Virus record (IMG/VR): IMGVR_UViG_3300020050_007888
Location: 7,554-71,553 of that record
Reading direction: 5' to 3' (one strand)
DNA length: 64,000 nt
From: a virus
Taxonomy: Duplodnaviria; Caudoviricetes
Shown: one piece after another, positions 1 to 3,374 of the stretch
Layout of the letters: each line of letters starts with the position of its first letter
How positions within the stretch are numbered: the stretch's first letter is position 1
Translations under genes and position numbers: made by a program
The notes under the pieces: generated by a model
Told to the model about the DNA's origin: nothing
Seen by the model: only the letters and a program-made list of their open reading frames with translations
Database searches by the model: none

Positions 1-288
1 GAGATGCCTACATTATATTCCGTTAGCGGGAGCGCGGCATTCTATAATAAGTGTTCGCTTGGACTGGTGATTCACAGGGATAGCCAGACTTCGCAGACTA
101 TATTAAGTGTACAAAAGGTAAAGTTTAAGCATTGGGGAGAAAATGGAGAGTGTCGTCTTGCGTGGAACCGTGAGAATGGGCGTTATAATAGCGTGAATCA
201 TTATGATGATGCCAACTGGCTTATAAAAGAACAAATACAAACTAACTTCTATGAAAAAATCGAAGAACTTGGGGATGCTCCCTATTGA
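1..288 (+). CDS. C-terminal fragment of a Twinkle/T7 gp4-like primase-helicase (5' end outside the window)
   Basis: PTLYSVSGSAAFYNKCSLGLVIHRD...VQKVKFKHWGENG resembles the SF4 helicase C-terminal motifs. The frame is open back to position 1. Confidence 0.8.
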   Translation, partial: EMPTLYSVSGSAAFYNKCSLGLVIHRDSQTSQTILSVQKVKFKHWGENGECRLAWNRENGRYNSVNHYDDANWLIKEQIQTNFYEKIEELGDAPY

Positions 289-772
289 AACAACGTATAA
301 TGGAATAAAATTTCGTAGCCGTCTGGAAGCGAGGTGGGCTATGTTTTTTGATATGATTCATGTCAGATGGAATTATGAACCGGAAGGGTTTACTAATGGA
401 GACGAATGTTATTTGCCGGACTTCGTGCTATATAATGTGGCATTAAGGGATGACGCTCTGCCTGTTTATATTGAAATTAAGCCTGAGAGTTTTACTGAAA
501 GTCAATATAAGGAATGGTTTACTAAAAACCTGGTGTTATTTAACGGTACGCCGAAGCAGTTTATTTGGGGAAATTGTGATAGTAGTGGCGGTTTTCAATT
601 GTATCCGTGGTGGGATAATTGCATGAGGATTTGGAAGTGCGTAAAATGCGGAAGGATGAAAATTGAGTTTCATGAAAGAAATTATGACCACTGTGAAAAT
701 GGTTGTGATGGTAGAAATGATGATGCGGGAATGATGCGGGCAGCAAATTTAGCCGAAAGCGCAAGGTTTTAA
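251..772 (+). CDS. PD-(D/E)xK-family nuclease-like protein with a C-terminal Cys cluster
   Basis: YNGIKFRSRLEARWAMFFD...YEPEGF...YLPDF...YIEIKP has PD...ExK spacing; CVKC and CENGC lie near the C-terminus. Confidence 0.7.
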   Translation: MKKSKNLGMLPIETTYNGIKFRSRLEARWAMFFDMIHVRWNYEPEGFTNGDECYLPDFVLYNVALRDDALPVYIEIKPESFTESQYKEWFTKNLVLFNGTPKQFIWGNCDSSGGFQLYPWWDNCMRIWKCVKCGRMKIEFHERNYDHCENGCDGRNDDAGMMRAANLAESARF

Positions 773-825: not shown

Positions 826-996
826 ATGCGAAGAAACACAAAAAAGATGGTAGGCGTACAAGCATGGATTGAGGACACTACATTTACAGAGGCAATGCTG
901 TTAGCTCAGGCAGATGATTTGAGTTTGTCGGCATGGATACGCCGCGCCATCAAGGAGAAGCTGATAAGGGATACGCCGGCGGGGAAGAAGGGATGA
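826..996 (+). CDS. Small ribbon-helix-helix-like DNA-binding protein
   Basis: VGVQAWI...AMLLAQADDLSLSAWIRRAIKEKL shows a strand-helix-helix pattern. ATG 826 follows the promoter and is preferred over 793. The stop overlaps the next start (ATGA). Confidence 0.55.
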   Translation: MRRNTKKMVGVQAWIEDTTFTEAMLLAQADDLSLSAWIRRAIKEKLIRDTPAGKKG

Positions 997-2207
997 TGCA
1001 CTTCGGACTATTTGAGGGTATAGGGGGCTTCTCGTTGGCGGCTCAGTGGATGGGATGGAAAACATATCTTACATCTGAGATTAATCCGTTTTGCAATAAG
1101 GTTTTGGATTATCATTTTCCAGAATCATACAGGCATGGAGATATTCACACATTGAACTATGAAACAATTAATATTGAACTTACAAAACGGTTTGGAACCC
1201 ACTGGAGAAATGACGACATCATCGTTACCGGTGGGTTCCCATAACTATGCCAACCATACAGCGCAGCCGGAAAGCGACTTGGAACGGAAGATGACAGGCA
1301 TCTCTGGCCGGAAATGCTTAGAGCAATTCGAGAGATTCAACCAACCTGGATCGTGGGCGAAAACGTTCGGGGCTTTACTAATTGGAACGGGGGCATGGTA
1401 TTCGACCAGGTGCAGGCTGATTTGGAAGCTCAGGGCTACGAAGTCCTCCCGTTTCTACTTCCAGCTTGTGCCGTCGGCGCACCGCATAGAAGAGACAGGA
1501 TATGGATTGTTGCCTACTCCAATGGCTTGCGAAGGTCACAAGAACATGAGTTGCAGCGATCAGAACTATTTAAGCAATCATGCAAGATCAGGTCTTCTCC
1601 CATCCCCCGTAGCGAGCGATGCGACCACGGGAGCGATAATAGGGAAGAACGATACGTTCAGAGAAACGAAAGGTCTACCGAGGAAGGTGAATCAGAACGG
1701 CAAGGACGGGAGTGTGGGATTAGGGAGGTTGGTTCAACTCCTTCCGACCCCAACCACGGGAGCCGATCACGGGACGCAGTACAAGCAGGGCGGGAGGAGC
1801 CTGAAGAATTTTATGGACCACAACGGTCTCTTACCAACACACAGAGAAGCGGCATCGAGGGGAAATTGCAGCAACAACAGAGGGAAGGGGAATTTAGAAG
1901 ATGCGATAGCGGGTATGTTGCCAACTCCAACGGCCAACTGTCACAAGGGAGGAGCGGTGAGGACAGACCCATCGAGGCAGAGCGACACGTTGGCACACCA
2001 CTTCGCAACGACTACTGGGCAAACTTCCCAACTGTCGCCCCTGTTTGTATGCGAAATGATGAGCTTTCCTTTGGATTATCTGGTATTACCTTTCCAAAAT
2101 GGCGAAACGAAAGCATAAAGGCGTTGGGCAATGCAGTAGTGCCGGCGTTAGTCTACGAAATATTTAAAGCGATTGAAAGTTATGACCCACCACCTACAAG
2201 CAGTTAG
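993..2207 (+). CDS. dcm: C5 cytosine DNA methyltransferase main chain (motifs I-VIII and X), interrupted by an in-frame TAA-CTA at 1242-1247; recoded gene or pseudogene
   Basis: Motif I (LFEGIGGF), then TGGFP-TAA-CTA-CQPYSAAG (motif IV), GENVRG (VI), PHRRDRIWIVA (VIII) and IKALGNAVVP (X). Track ORFs 933..1244 and 1314..2207 are in the same frame. Confidence 0.85.
1159..2118 (+). CDS. Overlapping +1-frame ORF, putative second methylase subunit (target-recognition repeats plus motif IX); true start uncertain (1159, 1210 or 1291)
   Basis: A 319-codon frame inside the dcm gene. It has five (L/M)LP(T/S)P-type repeats and ends QLSPLFVCEMMSFPLDY, a motif-IX-like segment absent from the main frame. 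The layout matches M.EcoHK31I alpha/beta. Confidence 0.75.
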   Translation: MKQLILNLQNGLEPTGEMTTSSLPVGSHNYANHTAQPESDLERKMTGISGRKCLEQFERFNQPGSWAKTFGALLIGTGAWYSTRCRLIWKLRATKSSRFYFQLVPSAHRIEETGYGLLPTPMACEGHKNMSCSDQNYLSNHARSGLLPSPVASDATTGAIIGKNDTFRETKGLPRKVNQNGKDGSVGLGRLVQLLPTPTTGADHGTQYKQGGRSLKNFMDHNGLLPTHREAASRGNCSNNRGKGNLEDAIAGMLPTPTANCHKGGAVRTDPSRQSDTLAHHFATTTGQTSQLSPLFVCEMMSFPLDYLVLPFQNGETKA

Positions 2208-2381: not shown

Positions 2382-3374
2382 ATGATAAGATATAGCCCTA
2401 CGCCCATAGAGGCAAACAAGAATGTGAGCATATTAATATGCCACCGAAATACGTTAGAGAATATCACGCTATGCGTGAGTTCTATTCTGACGCACTACCC
2501 CGATATTGAGATTCATGTATTGGATGGCATGAGTGATGACTATTCAAGAACATGGCTTAAGACAAGGGAGCAGATATACCCGCATCTGCATATCCACGAC
2601 TGGACAACGGACTATCATAGTCATGGCGTGATGATGGACCACGGTATCAAGAACGTTATCAAGACACCTTATGTATGGCTGATGGATTCGGATGTGATCG
2701 TGAGGTACAGGGTACGCCTGCCCGATGTAGAATACGCCACCGGTACACTCATGGTACAGAGTAAGAAGGGAGAGGGTTGTACACCAGGTGAAGGTGAAGA
2801 CTCCTTCCGCTACATCCATCCTTCGTGTTGTATCCTGGACAGAAGTAAGTATCAGGAGTACGCCCCCTTTACGGATCACGGTGCGCCCTGCGTATGGAAT
2901 ATGATAGAGGCGAACGAGGCGGGAGAGGTGCTGAGGGACTGGCCGGAAGGAAATGCAAGTATCCTGCATCTGTGTGGAGGGTCATGGACGACACCACGAA
3001 CAGTATGGTGGCATGATATGGGGGTGCAGACGAGACCGCTGGTGAGCTGGTTGGTTCCGATGGGGTTGACAGGACTACACCATGTACACGTAGACTCCGA
3101 AGTTGTAGTGAGAACAGATGTTGGTTTAAGCGAAGAAGATAATATTCAAATAGTAGGGTGGCTACAATTGCAGGTAATGAGCGATAATAGCTACTGGAAC
3201 CGTATGCGAGTGCGAGGCGAGTATGTGACATCACAGTACGTCAGTCATGAAGAAATCGAAGAGTTGGCTCAGTCCATCATACAGCACGGAGCGCAAGAGA
3301 CCTTCGGTCCCTTCACCCGCAGGGATGTTTGGCAGAGGAACACGACAAGGGGGAAATTATTACAACAGCAATAG
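2382..3374 (+). CDS. Glycosyltransferase, GT-A fold (GT2-like)
   Basis: VSILICHRN...EIHVLDGMSDD...TPYVWLMDSDVIV gives the GT2 N-terminal pattern with a DxD motif. Confidence 0.8.
   Translation: MIRYSPTPIEANKNVSILICHRNTLENITLCVSSILTHYPDIEIHVLDGMSDDYSRTWLKTREQIYPHLHIHDWTTDYHSHGVMMDHGIKNVIKTPYVWLMDSDVIVRYRVRLPDVEYATGTLMVQSKKGEGCTPGEGEDSFRYIHPSCCILDRSKYQEYAPFTDHGAPCVWNMIEANEAGEVLRDWPEGNASILHLCGGSWTTPRTVWWHDMGVQTRPLVSWLVPMGLTGLHHVHVDSEVVVRTDVGLSEEDNIQIVGWLQLQVMSDNSYWNRMRVRGEYVTSQYVSHEEIEELAQSIIQHGAQETFGPFTRRDVWQRNTTRGKLLQQQ

What the first reader, a model, noticed from the sequence alone, without database searches (positions are those of the whole stretch)
1230..1262. In-frame TAA-CTA wedged between the catalytic Pro and Cys of an otherwise intact C5 methylase
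Seen: GGT GGG TTC CCA TAA CTA TGC CAA CCA TAC reads GGFP-stop-L-CQPY, and both halves are in one frame. The extra sequence is exactly 6 nt, so it preserves both this frame and the overlapping frame, which reads through it (SHNYANH). No other disabling lesion is visible in either frame. The insert can also be read as AACT flanked by AT..AT. Known: the PC dipeptide of motif IV carries the catalytic nucleophile, and T4 gene 60 is the precedent for translational bypassing. Inference: options are (a) a programmed two-codon hop or readthrough that throttles methylase output, (b) a footprint of an excised element or a recent inactivation, or (c) an assembly artefact. A precise 6-nt error at the active site seems less likely than (a) or (b), but this is unproven. 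A +1 slip at CCA_T would instead join the N-terminal part to the overlapping frame.
Basis: partly seen in the sequence, partly recalled or inferred. Interest (0 to 1): 0.85.

Follow-up and report, generated by a model that had tools for sequence, protein, structure and literature searches.

The report
Conserved stop inside methylase catalytic motif
A phage DNA-methylase gene, like at least 50 distinct relatives, keeps a stop codon plus one proline-like codon between its catalytic proline and cysteine while both halves stay under purifying selection, so ribosomes must get past the stop, most likely by a six-base hop, which no published report describes in a natural gene.

Summary
In detail: GGT GGG TTC CCA TAA CTA TGC CAA at 1230-1253 reads GGFP-stop-L-CQ. 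The Cys aligns with the catalytic Cys81 of M.HhaI.

It is neither an assembly error nor a fresh pseudogene. The same stop-plus-one-codon insert sits at the same place in 64 loci (51 distinct sequences) from viral, metagenome and genome collections.
- Every insert starts with a stop: TAG 21, TGA 16, TAA 14.
- On a tree of 47 such genes the stop changed identity at least 16 times and never became a sense codon.
- The second codon is always YYN. It is a proline codon in 27 of 51.
- The 22 codons just after the insert evolve under frame-A purifying selection as strongly as in uninterrupted relatives (pN/pS 0.22 against 0.27). The N-terminal part and the C-terminal motif X tail do too.

So the stop is passed in frame. 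The best reading (0.55) is a +6 "stop-hop": peptidyl-tRNAPro leaves CCA, re-pairs on CTA and resumes at TGC, which restores GGFPCQP. Readthrough is the main rival. No RNA or protein data could be obtained.

The gene also holds a nested +1-frame chain, as in M.EcoHK31I.

This scan has noted stop-hop candidates in other phage methylases on other DNA. A 2016 review says no natural stop-hop is known.

The parts
993..1241 (+). Alpha chain, 5' coding segment (83 codons): motif I LFEGIGGF up to the Pro of motif IV (GGFP)
   Evidence: Translation. PF00145 E 1e-05. In insert-bearing relatives the 40 codons from motif I on have frame-A pN/pS 0.35 with pS 0.84.
1230..1235 (+). GGT GGG, a purine-rich Gly-Gly stretch 3 nt upstream of the Pro codon. 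The second Gly codon is GGG in 50 of 51 insert-bearing genes.
   Evidence: Uninterrupted relatives mostly use GGA here. Its function is unknown; a Shine-Dalgarno-like stimulator is only a guess.
1239..1241 (+). CCA, the catalytic-motif Pro codon and proposed take-off codon
   Evidence: Across insert-bearing genes the codon is CCG 33, CCT 11, CCA 5, CCC 2.
1242..1244 (+). TAA, the conserved in-frame stop
   Evidence: 51 of 51 distinct homologous inserts start with a stop. The stop changed identity at least 16 times on the tree and never became a sense codon. TAA is also the commonest true terminator in the window: 25 of 50 long ORFs.
1245..1247 (+). CTA, the extra codon and proposed landing codon for peptidyl-tRNAPro
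   Evidence: This codon is always YYN. It is CCN in 27 of 51 and identical to the Pro codon in 12. Position 2 changed at least 13 times, always C<->T.
1248..2207 (+). Alpha chain, 3' coding segment. It starts at the catalytic Cys codon TGC (proposed resume codon) and runs through motifs VI, VIII and X to the TAG stop at 2205-2207.
   Evidence: PF00145 E 8.7e-28. Residue 1 aligns with M.HhaI Cys81. First 22 codons: pN/pS 0.22 in frame A against 1.38 in frame B. Motif X tail: pN 0.29, pS 0.78.
1159..2118 (+). Nested +1-frame ORF (beta chain, 319 codons) with LLPTP modules and a motif-IX-like end. It reads through the insert as Asn-Tyr.
   Evidence: phrog_1008 E 1.7e-20. A nested +1-frame ORF of mostly 200-380 codons is open in nearly all of 80 related viral loci, while the third frame within the gene is mostly open for only 30-60 codons. 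The C-terminal block has pN/pS 0.36 in frame B against 0.79 in frame A.

Best explanation
The gene encodes the catalytic (alpha) chain of a two-chain phage cytosine-C5 DNA methyltransferase. Its partner (beta) chain is encoded in the +1 frame inside the same gene. A clade-wide six-base cassette, one stop codon plus one YYN codon, sits between the codons of the catalytic Pro and Cys.

The proposed mechanism has these steps.
1. A ribosome translating alpha arrives with peptidyl-tRNAPro on CCA in the P site and TAA in the A site.
2. Most ribosomes terminate there and release an 83-residue N-terminal fragment.
3. A fraction do not terminate. The peptidyl-tRNAPro lets go of CCA, moves six bases and re-pairs on CTA (C:G, U.G, A:U with an NGG anticodon).
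4. The next codon, TGC, is decoded as Cys, so nine bases give one amino acid.
5. The product carries the normal GGFPCQP motif with no extra residues.

The cassette would therefore act as a built-in attenuator of alpha. It would also explain its own persistence. A mutation of the stop to a sense codon would put two residues into the active-site loop and would be purged.

What is shown: the cassette, its recurrence, the invariance of the stop, the YYN rule, and frame-A purifying selection on both sides. What is inferred: that the passage is a hop rather than readthrough, the tRNA pairing, the low efficiency and the attenuator role.
For: 1. The cassette recurs at exactly this place in 64 loci, 51 of them distinct. 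It was found by protein similarity (read) and by DNA patterns that left the six bases free. All 51 start with a stop: TAG 21, TGA 16, TAA 14. No methylase with a two-codon sense insert was found.
2. On a tree of 47 insert-bearing genes the stop changed identity at least 16 times and never became a sense codon. Over the same changes the overlapping beta codon moved freely among Asn, Asp and Ser.
3. The extra codon is always YYN: CCN in 27 of 51, identical to the Pro codon in 12, otherwise CTN, TCN or TTA. Matched codons flanking a stop is the design of the synthetic 'stop-hops' described in PMC5009743.
4. Position 2 of that codon changed at least 13 times, always C<->T. The beta residue it encodes there ranges over H, Y, R, C, L, F, P and S, so beta does not explain the rule. 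C or U can both pair with G of a tRNAPro anticodon; this last step is inference.
5. Translation continues in frame A. The 22 codons directly after the cassette have frame-A pN/pS 0.22, against 0.27 in uninterrupted relatives, and frame-B pN/pS 1.38. The motif X tail beyond the beta stop has pN 0.29 at a saturated pS of 0.78. The N-terminal part has pN/pS 0.35. The extra codon is a canonical start codon in none of the 51 inserts, and the window has no canonical start between TAA and the Cys codon.
6. No suppressor or altered code is involved. The whole 71.5-kb contig has no tRNA gene. All three stops end long ORFs here.
7. Near-identical contigs all carry the insert, so it is stable and not a fast switch.
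Against: There are no RNA, ribosome-profiling or protein data.

In this window the landing codon CTA matches the Pro anticodon only through a U.G pair at the middle position. One relative has TTA.

No stimulatory RNA structure is predicted around the site (z +0.6 and +1.5).

From memory, synthetic stop-hops are inefficient, of the order of a per cent. It is unclear whether that is enough enzyme.

C<->T at position 1 of the extra codon is synonymous in beta, so only position 2 is informative. Shared ancestry inflates all counts. The patterns fixed the flanking codons, so the sample is one part of the family.

Sequence alone cannot separate a hop from readthrough. If the cassette arose by duplication of CCN-TGY, that origin would also bias the extra codon towards CCN.
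Confidence: 0.55

Rival explanations
1. Programmed stop-codon readthrough. A near-cognate tRNA decodes the stop and the extra codon is translated. This gives a low level of alpha with two additional residues (for example Gln/Tyr/Trp plus Leu/Ser/Pro) between Pro and Cys.
For: It explains frame-A selection downstream equally well. The base after the stop is C in 44 of 51 and T in the rest; from memory, C is a weak termination context in E. coli. A C-terminal Pro is a poor substrate for termination (memory); PMC5009743, says only that proline is a poor donor and acceptor in peptide-bond formation.
Against: All three stops are used about equally and interchange freely. UAA in particular is rarely read through (memory). 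If the two-residue insertion were tolerated, single-base stop-to-sense variants should exist, yet 0 of 51 do. That includes TGG, which the TRR pattern would have caught. The translated extra residue would be Pro, Leu or Ser, which are chemically unrelated. The YYN rule then has no obvious reason. No uninterrupted relative has any residue between Pro and Cys.
Confidence: 0.2
2. A +1 frameshift at CCN-stop into the nested frame, as in prfB. It would fuse the first 83 residues of alpha (SAM-binding motif I) to the beta chain, and that fusion would be the selected product.
For: A stop in the A site and a G-rich stretch 3 nt upstream resemble the prfB site (memory). The +1 frame is open and coding across the site.
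Against: It does not explain frame-A selection on the 22 codons just after the site, where frame B has pN/pS 1.38. It does not explain selection on motif X either. Beta has its own ATG upstream of the site in genes with and without the insert. The best +1 slip codon, CCC before T, is the rarest at the site: 2 of 51, against 15 of 60 in uninterrupted relatives. CCA, CCG or CCT cannot re-pair on CAT, CGT or CTT.
Confidence: 0.08
3. There is no recoding. Alpha is truncated at GGFP and catalytically dead, or works as separate pieces. The 3' part would be kept for other reasons, such as overlap with beta or an internally initiated non-catalytic protein.
For: This is the default reading of an in-frame stop. 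Much of the 3' part is overlapped by a coding frame. In-frame Met codons exist downstream (WPEM).
Against: The segment between the stop and the first downstream Met is constrained in frame A, not frame B. The tail beyond beta is conserved at saturated synonymous divergence. The stop itself is conserved through at least 16 changes, which a dead gene does not need. Insert-bearing lineages are old: the window's nearest relative is 74% identical over the core. A chain cut between Pro and Cys has no start codon for the second piece.
Confidence: 0.1
4. A DNA-level explanation: an assembly or sequencing error, the footprint of a mobile element, or a slipped-strand ON/OFF switch that removes the six bases in part of the population.
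For: The cassette could have arisen as a tandem duplication of CCN-TGY followed by TGY to TGA (inference from forms such as CCT TGA CCA TGC). The tree needs several gains or precise losses: 8 by parsimony, at least 3 forced.
Against: The feature appears in dozens of independent assemblies from different samples (35/36, 51/52, 71/73). The inserts share no sequence beyond stop+YYN, so they are not a common footprint. In the window the two hexamers CCATAA and CTATGC match at only 3 of 6 positions, which is too little for slippage. Groups of near-identical contigs all keep the insert.
Confidence: 0.07

Closest known systems
Synthetic 'stop-hops' in E. coli (Weiss et al. 1987, as described in the review PMC5009743)
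   Same: Matched or pairing-compatible codons flank a stop codon. Nine bases would give one amino acid. [quoted passage not shown]
   Different: Those were engineered constructs. The review states that no natural occurrences are known. Here the site is natural, conserved across at least 51 distinct genes, sits in a catalytic motif, and its landing codon is often only wobble-compatible (CTN, TCN).
Phage T4 gene 60 translational bypass (50 nt)
   Same: There is a take-off codon with a stop immediately 3' of it, a matched landing codon, and resumption at the next codon. The gene is a phage gene.
   Different: The gap is 6 nt rather than 50 nt. No take-off stem-loop is predicted. No nascent-peptide signal has been identified. 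The tRNA would be tRNAPro rather than tRNAGly. Efficiency is unknown.
Streptomyces phage phiHau3-type terminase bypass candidates (PMC10732093)
   Same: A short-distance candidate bypass in a phage gene, proposed to be regulatory (abstract).
   Different: There a rare UUA sense codon is the slow codon and the reading frames differ. Here a stop codon is the slow codon and the hop is in frame.
M.EcoHK31I, a heterodimeric C5 methyltransferase
   Same: A second chain is encoded entirely in another reading frame inside the alpha gene. [quoted passage not shown] The layout here is the same.
   Different: In M.EcoHK31I alpha is said to hold the target-recognition domain. Here alpha's variable region is unconserved low-complexity sequence, and the LLPTP modules lie in beta. 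M.EcoHK31I has no reported in-frame stop. Homology of the two beta chains was not tested.
prfB (RF2) +1 programmed frameshift
   Same: A stop codon in the A site acts as the pause, and a G-rich stretch lies 3 nt upstream of the P-site codon (memory).
   Different: The outcome needed here is in frame, since frame A is the one under selection. The P-site codon cannot re-pair at +1.

Membership tests
Cytosine-C5 DNA methyltransferase (PF00145) | Significant match to the family profile | tested here: met
   Both halves match: E 1e-05 (993-1241) and 8.7e-28 (1245-2204), both above the cut-off. phrog_363 gives E 1.1e-44.
Cytosine-C5 DNA methyltransferase (PF00145) | Contiguous catalytic Pro-Cys dipeptide in motif IV | tested here: not met
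   At DNA level the Pro and Cys codons are separated by TAA CTA. The Cys aligns with M.HhaI Cys81. The dipeptide would be contiguous only in a hop product.
Cytosine-C5 DNA methyltransferase (PF00145) | Motifs I (FxGxGG), VI (ENV), VIII (RxR) and X (GNAxxP) present in one frame | tested here: met
   LFEGIGGF, GENV, HRRDR and GNAVVP are all in frame A and are invariant or nearly so in the alignment.
Translational bypassing / stop-hop | [quoted passage not shown] | tested here: met
   CCA TAA in the window. A stop is present in 51 of 51 homologous sites.
Translational bypassing / stop-hop | A landing codon that can pair with the same peptidyl-tRNA, directly 5' of the resume codon | tested here: inconclusive
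   The codon is CCN in 27 of 51 relatives and identical to the Pro codon in 12. In the window it is CTA, which pairs only with a U.G at position 2. It is always YYN. Actual pairing was not measured.
Translational bypassing / stop-hop | Both flanking ORF parts are in use (purifying selection on both sides) | tested here: met
   pN/pS is 0.35 upstream, 0.22 directly downstream and 0.37 in the tail.
Translational bypassing / stop-hop | A protein product that lacks the residues of the gap | not testable with these tools
   This needs mass spectrometry or a reporter assay. No expression data could be reached.
M.EcoHK31I-type two-chain methyltransferase | A second chain encoded in another frame wholly inside the alpha gene | tested here: met
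   The +1 ORF 1159-2118 lies inside 993-2207. It is conserved in nearly all of 80 related viral loci and annotated as a nested CDS in Paenibacillus phages.
M.EcoHK31I-type two-chain methyltransferase | Beta supplies motif IX and is under its own selection | tested here: inconclusive
   The conserved end ...QLNPxFVxEMMGFPxxW... looks like motif IX. It has pN/pS 0.36 in frame B against 0.79 in frame A. It has no Pfam or PDB match.
M.EcoHK31I-type two-chain methyltransferase | Both chains are required and bind each other | not testable with these tools
   The complex prediction could not be run.

The most novel reading that the evidence does not exclude
This would be a natural, family-wide programmed in-frame 'stop-hop'. 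Peptidyl-tRNAPro hops six bases over any of the three stop codons to rebuild the catalytic Pro-Cys of a phage DNA methyltransferase. It would be one instance of a wider phage habit of placing stop-plus-matching-codon cassettes inside catalytic motifs of methylases. Such cassettes could serve as expression attenuators, or as sensors of release-factor or tRNA state in the host.
Probability: 0.5. Interest if true: 0.9.

Novelty: new variant of a known kind. Interest (0 to 1): 0.85.

Why it matters
Translational bypassing is known from very few natural genes. The 2016 review PMC5009743 states that in-frame stop hopping has been shown only with synthetic constructs and that no natural case is known.

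A site conserved in dozens of phage genes makes the question directly testable. It has a simple nine-base core (Pro codon, any stop, YYN codon) and an easy read-out (cytosine methylation). One can ask what makes a ribosome hop rather than terminate, which tRNA pairings suffice for landing, and whether phages use this to set enzyme dose or to sense the host's translation state.

There is a practical consequence too. Gene callers and pseudogene filters will mis-annotate these methylases as broken. The nested second chain is missed or called 'hypothetical'.

Tried and rejected
- Complex prediction of alpha-N, alpha-C and beta: the machine was unreachable five times, so there is no result.
- Suppressor tRNA or altered genetic code: no tRNA gene in the window, in the rest of the contig or in three related loci. 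TAA, TGA and TAG all end long ORFs. Rejected.
- Stimulatory RNA structure: folds of 1205-1330 and 1228-1290 are no more stable than shuffles. A small GGUU/AACC hairpin idea was dropped, because relatives with CAG CC instead of CAA CC cannot form it.
- Other stop-hop sites in the window: a scan for long same-frame ORF pairs separated by one stop found no other site flanked by matching codons.
- Exact 23-mer of the window in viral contigs: no other copy.
- Pattern with TTT for Phe: about 109 hits, none in a methylase.
- Representative prokaryote genomes: only two true hits, both on MAG contigs, so the host remains unknown.
- Pfam and PDB sequence searches for beta: nothing. The ESM Atlas gave only viral 'hypothetical protein' clusters.
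- One search was run in the wrong frame by mistake and is not used.
- An early idea that CCC is strictly avoided as take-off codon was weakened: 2 of 51 have it.

Full report
THE OBSERVATION. The window reads GGT GGG TTC CCA TAA CTA TGC CAA CCA TAC at 1230-1259. Frame A from 993 to 2207 translates to a cytosine-C5 methyltransferase with one interruption...IIVTGGFP*LCQPYSAAGK.... Pfam PF00145 matches both sides. The Cys after stop+Leu is the first aligned residue of a match that begins at the catalytic Cys81 of M.HhaI. The closest cultured relative, Bacteroides phage BS-TP4, has GGFPCQPFS with no extra bases. The window is part of a 71.5-kb IMG/VR viral contig.

IT RECURS. A protein-based search gave 80 related viral loci. 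Five of them (L029 and L030 are duplicates of one sequence) carry the same two-codon insert at the same place, and the insert starts with a stop in all five. They are L021 (CCG TGA TCG TGT), L029/L030 (CCG TAG CTG TGC), L034 (CCA TGA TCA TGT) and L060 (L060 was picked up in the pooled count).

I then scanned with DNA patterns that fixed only the flanking codons and left the six bases free.
- Viral contigs: 18 methylase hits.
- A capped metagenome scan: 12.
- A second viral scan with CAG CC as the 3' flank: 27.

Two narrower scans, which required T-R-R at the first inserted codon, added three more.
- A GGA-flank viral scan: 1.
- Representative prokaryote genomes: 2, both on MAG contigs.

Pooled, 64 loci and 51 distinct 180-nt contexts carry a two-codon insert in a methylase context. 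In all 51 the first inserted codon is a stop: TAG 21, TGA 16, TAA 14. Chance hits of the same patterns outside methylase genes start with a stop in 3 of 130 cases. This excludes an assembly error.

THE STOP IS SELECTED. On a tree of 47 distinct insert-bearing genes, built without the insert, the stop changed identity at least 16 times and never became a sense codon. Its first base is the third base of a codon in the overlapping +1 frame (CAT, CGT or CTT). For CGT and CTT that position is four-fold degenerate, so the other frame does not hold it. Its last two bases are the first two of the next +1-frame codon, which moved among Asn, Asp and Ser. That residue is therefore not tightly held either, yet GGY (which would make TGG in frame A) never appears.

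BOTH SIDES ARE TRANSLATED IN FRAME A. Three measurements support this.
- The 22 codons right after the insert (CQPYS.AGKR.G..D.R.LWPE). Variation among 26 insert-bearing genes is concentrated at frame-A third positions (0.52, against 0.20 and 0.16). Frame-A pN/pS is 0.22 and frame-B pN/pS is 1.38. The 61 uninterrupted relatives give 0.27 and 1.26.
- The last 20-30 codons of alpha, which lie beyond the end of the nested ORF and carry motif X. pN is 0.29 while pS is saturated at 0.78.
- The N-terminal part from motif I on. pN/pS is 0.35 with pS 0.84.

Insert-bearing genes are old and diverse. The window's nearest relative is 74% identical over the core. Most insert-bearing genes form one deep clade and a few are scattered. 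The extra codon is a canonical start codon in none of the inserts, and the window has no canonical start between the stop and the Cys codon. The conclusion is that ribosomes reading frame A get past the stop and stay in, or return to, frame A at or just before the Cys codon.

NOT AN ALTERED CODE. There is no tRNA gene anywhere on the contig. TAA is the commonest terminator of long ORFs in the window (25 of 50), followed by TGA (15) and TAG (10). Different relatives use all three stops at the site.

HOP OR READTHROUGH. The extra codon is always YYN: CCA 12, CTG 10, CCG 9, CTA 6, CCT 4, TCA 4, CCC 2, TCG 2, CTT 1, TTA 1.
- In 27 of 51 it is a proline codon. In 12 it is the very codon that precedes the stop, for example CCG TAG CCG TGC.
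[quoted passage not shown] The same review says of natural in-frame stop hopping that 'no occurrences are known'.
- Position 2 of the extra codon changed at least 13 times on the tree, always C<->T. This base is the first base of a +1-frame codon whose residue ranges over H, Y, R, C, L, F, P and S. The nested protein therefore does not explain the restriction.
- C and U are the two bases that can pair with G of a tRNAPro anticodon. This step is inference.
- A hop also explains why the stop never mutates to sense. Such a mutant would insert two residues at the active site.
- Under readthrough a sense mutant would simply make more of the same protein, and some should be seen. None is, among 51.

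For these reasons I put the hop at 0.55 and readthrough at 0.2.

The weak points are as follows. No product has been seen. The window's CTA needs a U.G pair in the middle position. No RNA structure stands out. Shared ancestry inflates the counts. An origin by duplication of CCN-TGY would by itself favour CCN.

OTHER RIVALS.
- A +1 slip into the nested frame does not account for frame-A selection after the site. It is not needed either, because the nested ORF has its own ATG upstream in all groups. The slip-prone CCC is the rarest take-off codon.
- A dead or split alpha is contradicted by the selection data.
- A fast DNA switch is unlikely, because near-identical contigs all keep the insert.

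CONTEXT: A TWO-FRAME GENE.
- The +1 frame is open from 1159 to 2118. It carries five LLPTP-like modules and a motif-IX-like end, and it matches phrog_1008.
- The same nested ORF is open in nearly all of 80 related viral loci, mostly for 200-380 codons, while the third frame within the gene is mostly open for only 30-60 codons.
- Paenibacillus phage records annotate it as a second, nested methyltransferase CDS.
- Selection switches along the gene. The 5' overlap is held in frame A (0.38 against 0.76). The 3' motif-IX-like block is held in frame B (0.36 against 0.79).
- This is the layout published for M.EcoHK31I (PMC2836561). Binding of the two chains could not be tested here.

EARLIER NOTES OF THIS SCAN. 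I looked these up after I had formed the hop reading (note). They describe stop-plus-matching-codon inserts in catalytic motifs of other phage methylases on other DNA, and the two-frame gene architecture. They agree with this report but are not independent evidence.

VERDICT. It is a conserved, selected, in-frame stop cassette that must be recoded. It is best explained as a natural +6 stop-hop by tRNAPro. That makes it a new natural variant of a known kind of recoding, and it needs a reporter and mass-spectrometry test.

Noticed in passing
window 1159-2118 (+1 frame inside 993-2207): A nested second reading frame with LLPTP modules and a motif-IX-like end. It is conserved in nearly all of 80 related viral loci. 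Purifying selection switches from frame A (5' overlap) to frame B (3' block). The layout is that of M.EcoHK31I alpha/beta.
   Followed up: yes
L034:706-1494 (= L099), L114, and L226 (alpha 3' part): Some insert-bearing relatives carry an in-frame HNH-endonuclease-like block (motifs such as HHxDYDKPL...CxxCH, or DHINRNRxDNRxxNLR) inside the alpha chain. It lies either between motifs I-III and motif IV or just before motif X. These may be domesticated or homing nuclease insertions.
   Followed up: no
window 1233-1235 and the same codon in relatives: The second Gly codon before the site is GGG in 50 of 51 insert-bearing genes, while uninterrupted relatives mostly use GGA. With the same flanks, a GGA pattern found 1 methylase hit against 18 for GGG. 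It may be a functional G-rich element 3 nt upstream of the take-off codon, or only shared ancestry.
   Followed up: partly
L021, L029, L085, L090-L094, L160, L233: about 150 nt upstream of the alpha start: Many insert-bearing loci share a conserved stretch just 5' of the alpha start. In the alpha frame it reads like ...CIxMFGKxKK...IFTT*... and contains stops. It may be a neighbouring gene in another frame or a conserved leader.
   Followed up: no
L032, L064, L079 (relatives without the insert): In these loci frame A is cut short (126-286 codons) while the nested frame B is as long or longer (289-353 codons). They may be frame swaps, frameshifts or true pseudogenes within the same family.
   Followed up: no
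window 2382-3374: The gene directly downstream of the methylase matches glycosyltransferase family 2 (PF00535, E 1.8e-08).
   Followed up: no
window 251-772 and 826-996: Two small ORFs upstream of the methylase have no Pfam match. The first has a nuclease-like N-terminal pattern (…FRSRLEARWAMFFD…) and a Cys-rich end.
   Followed up: no
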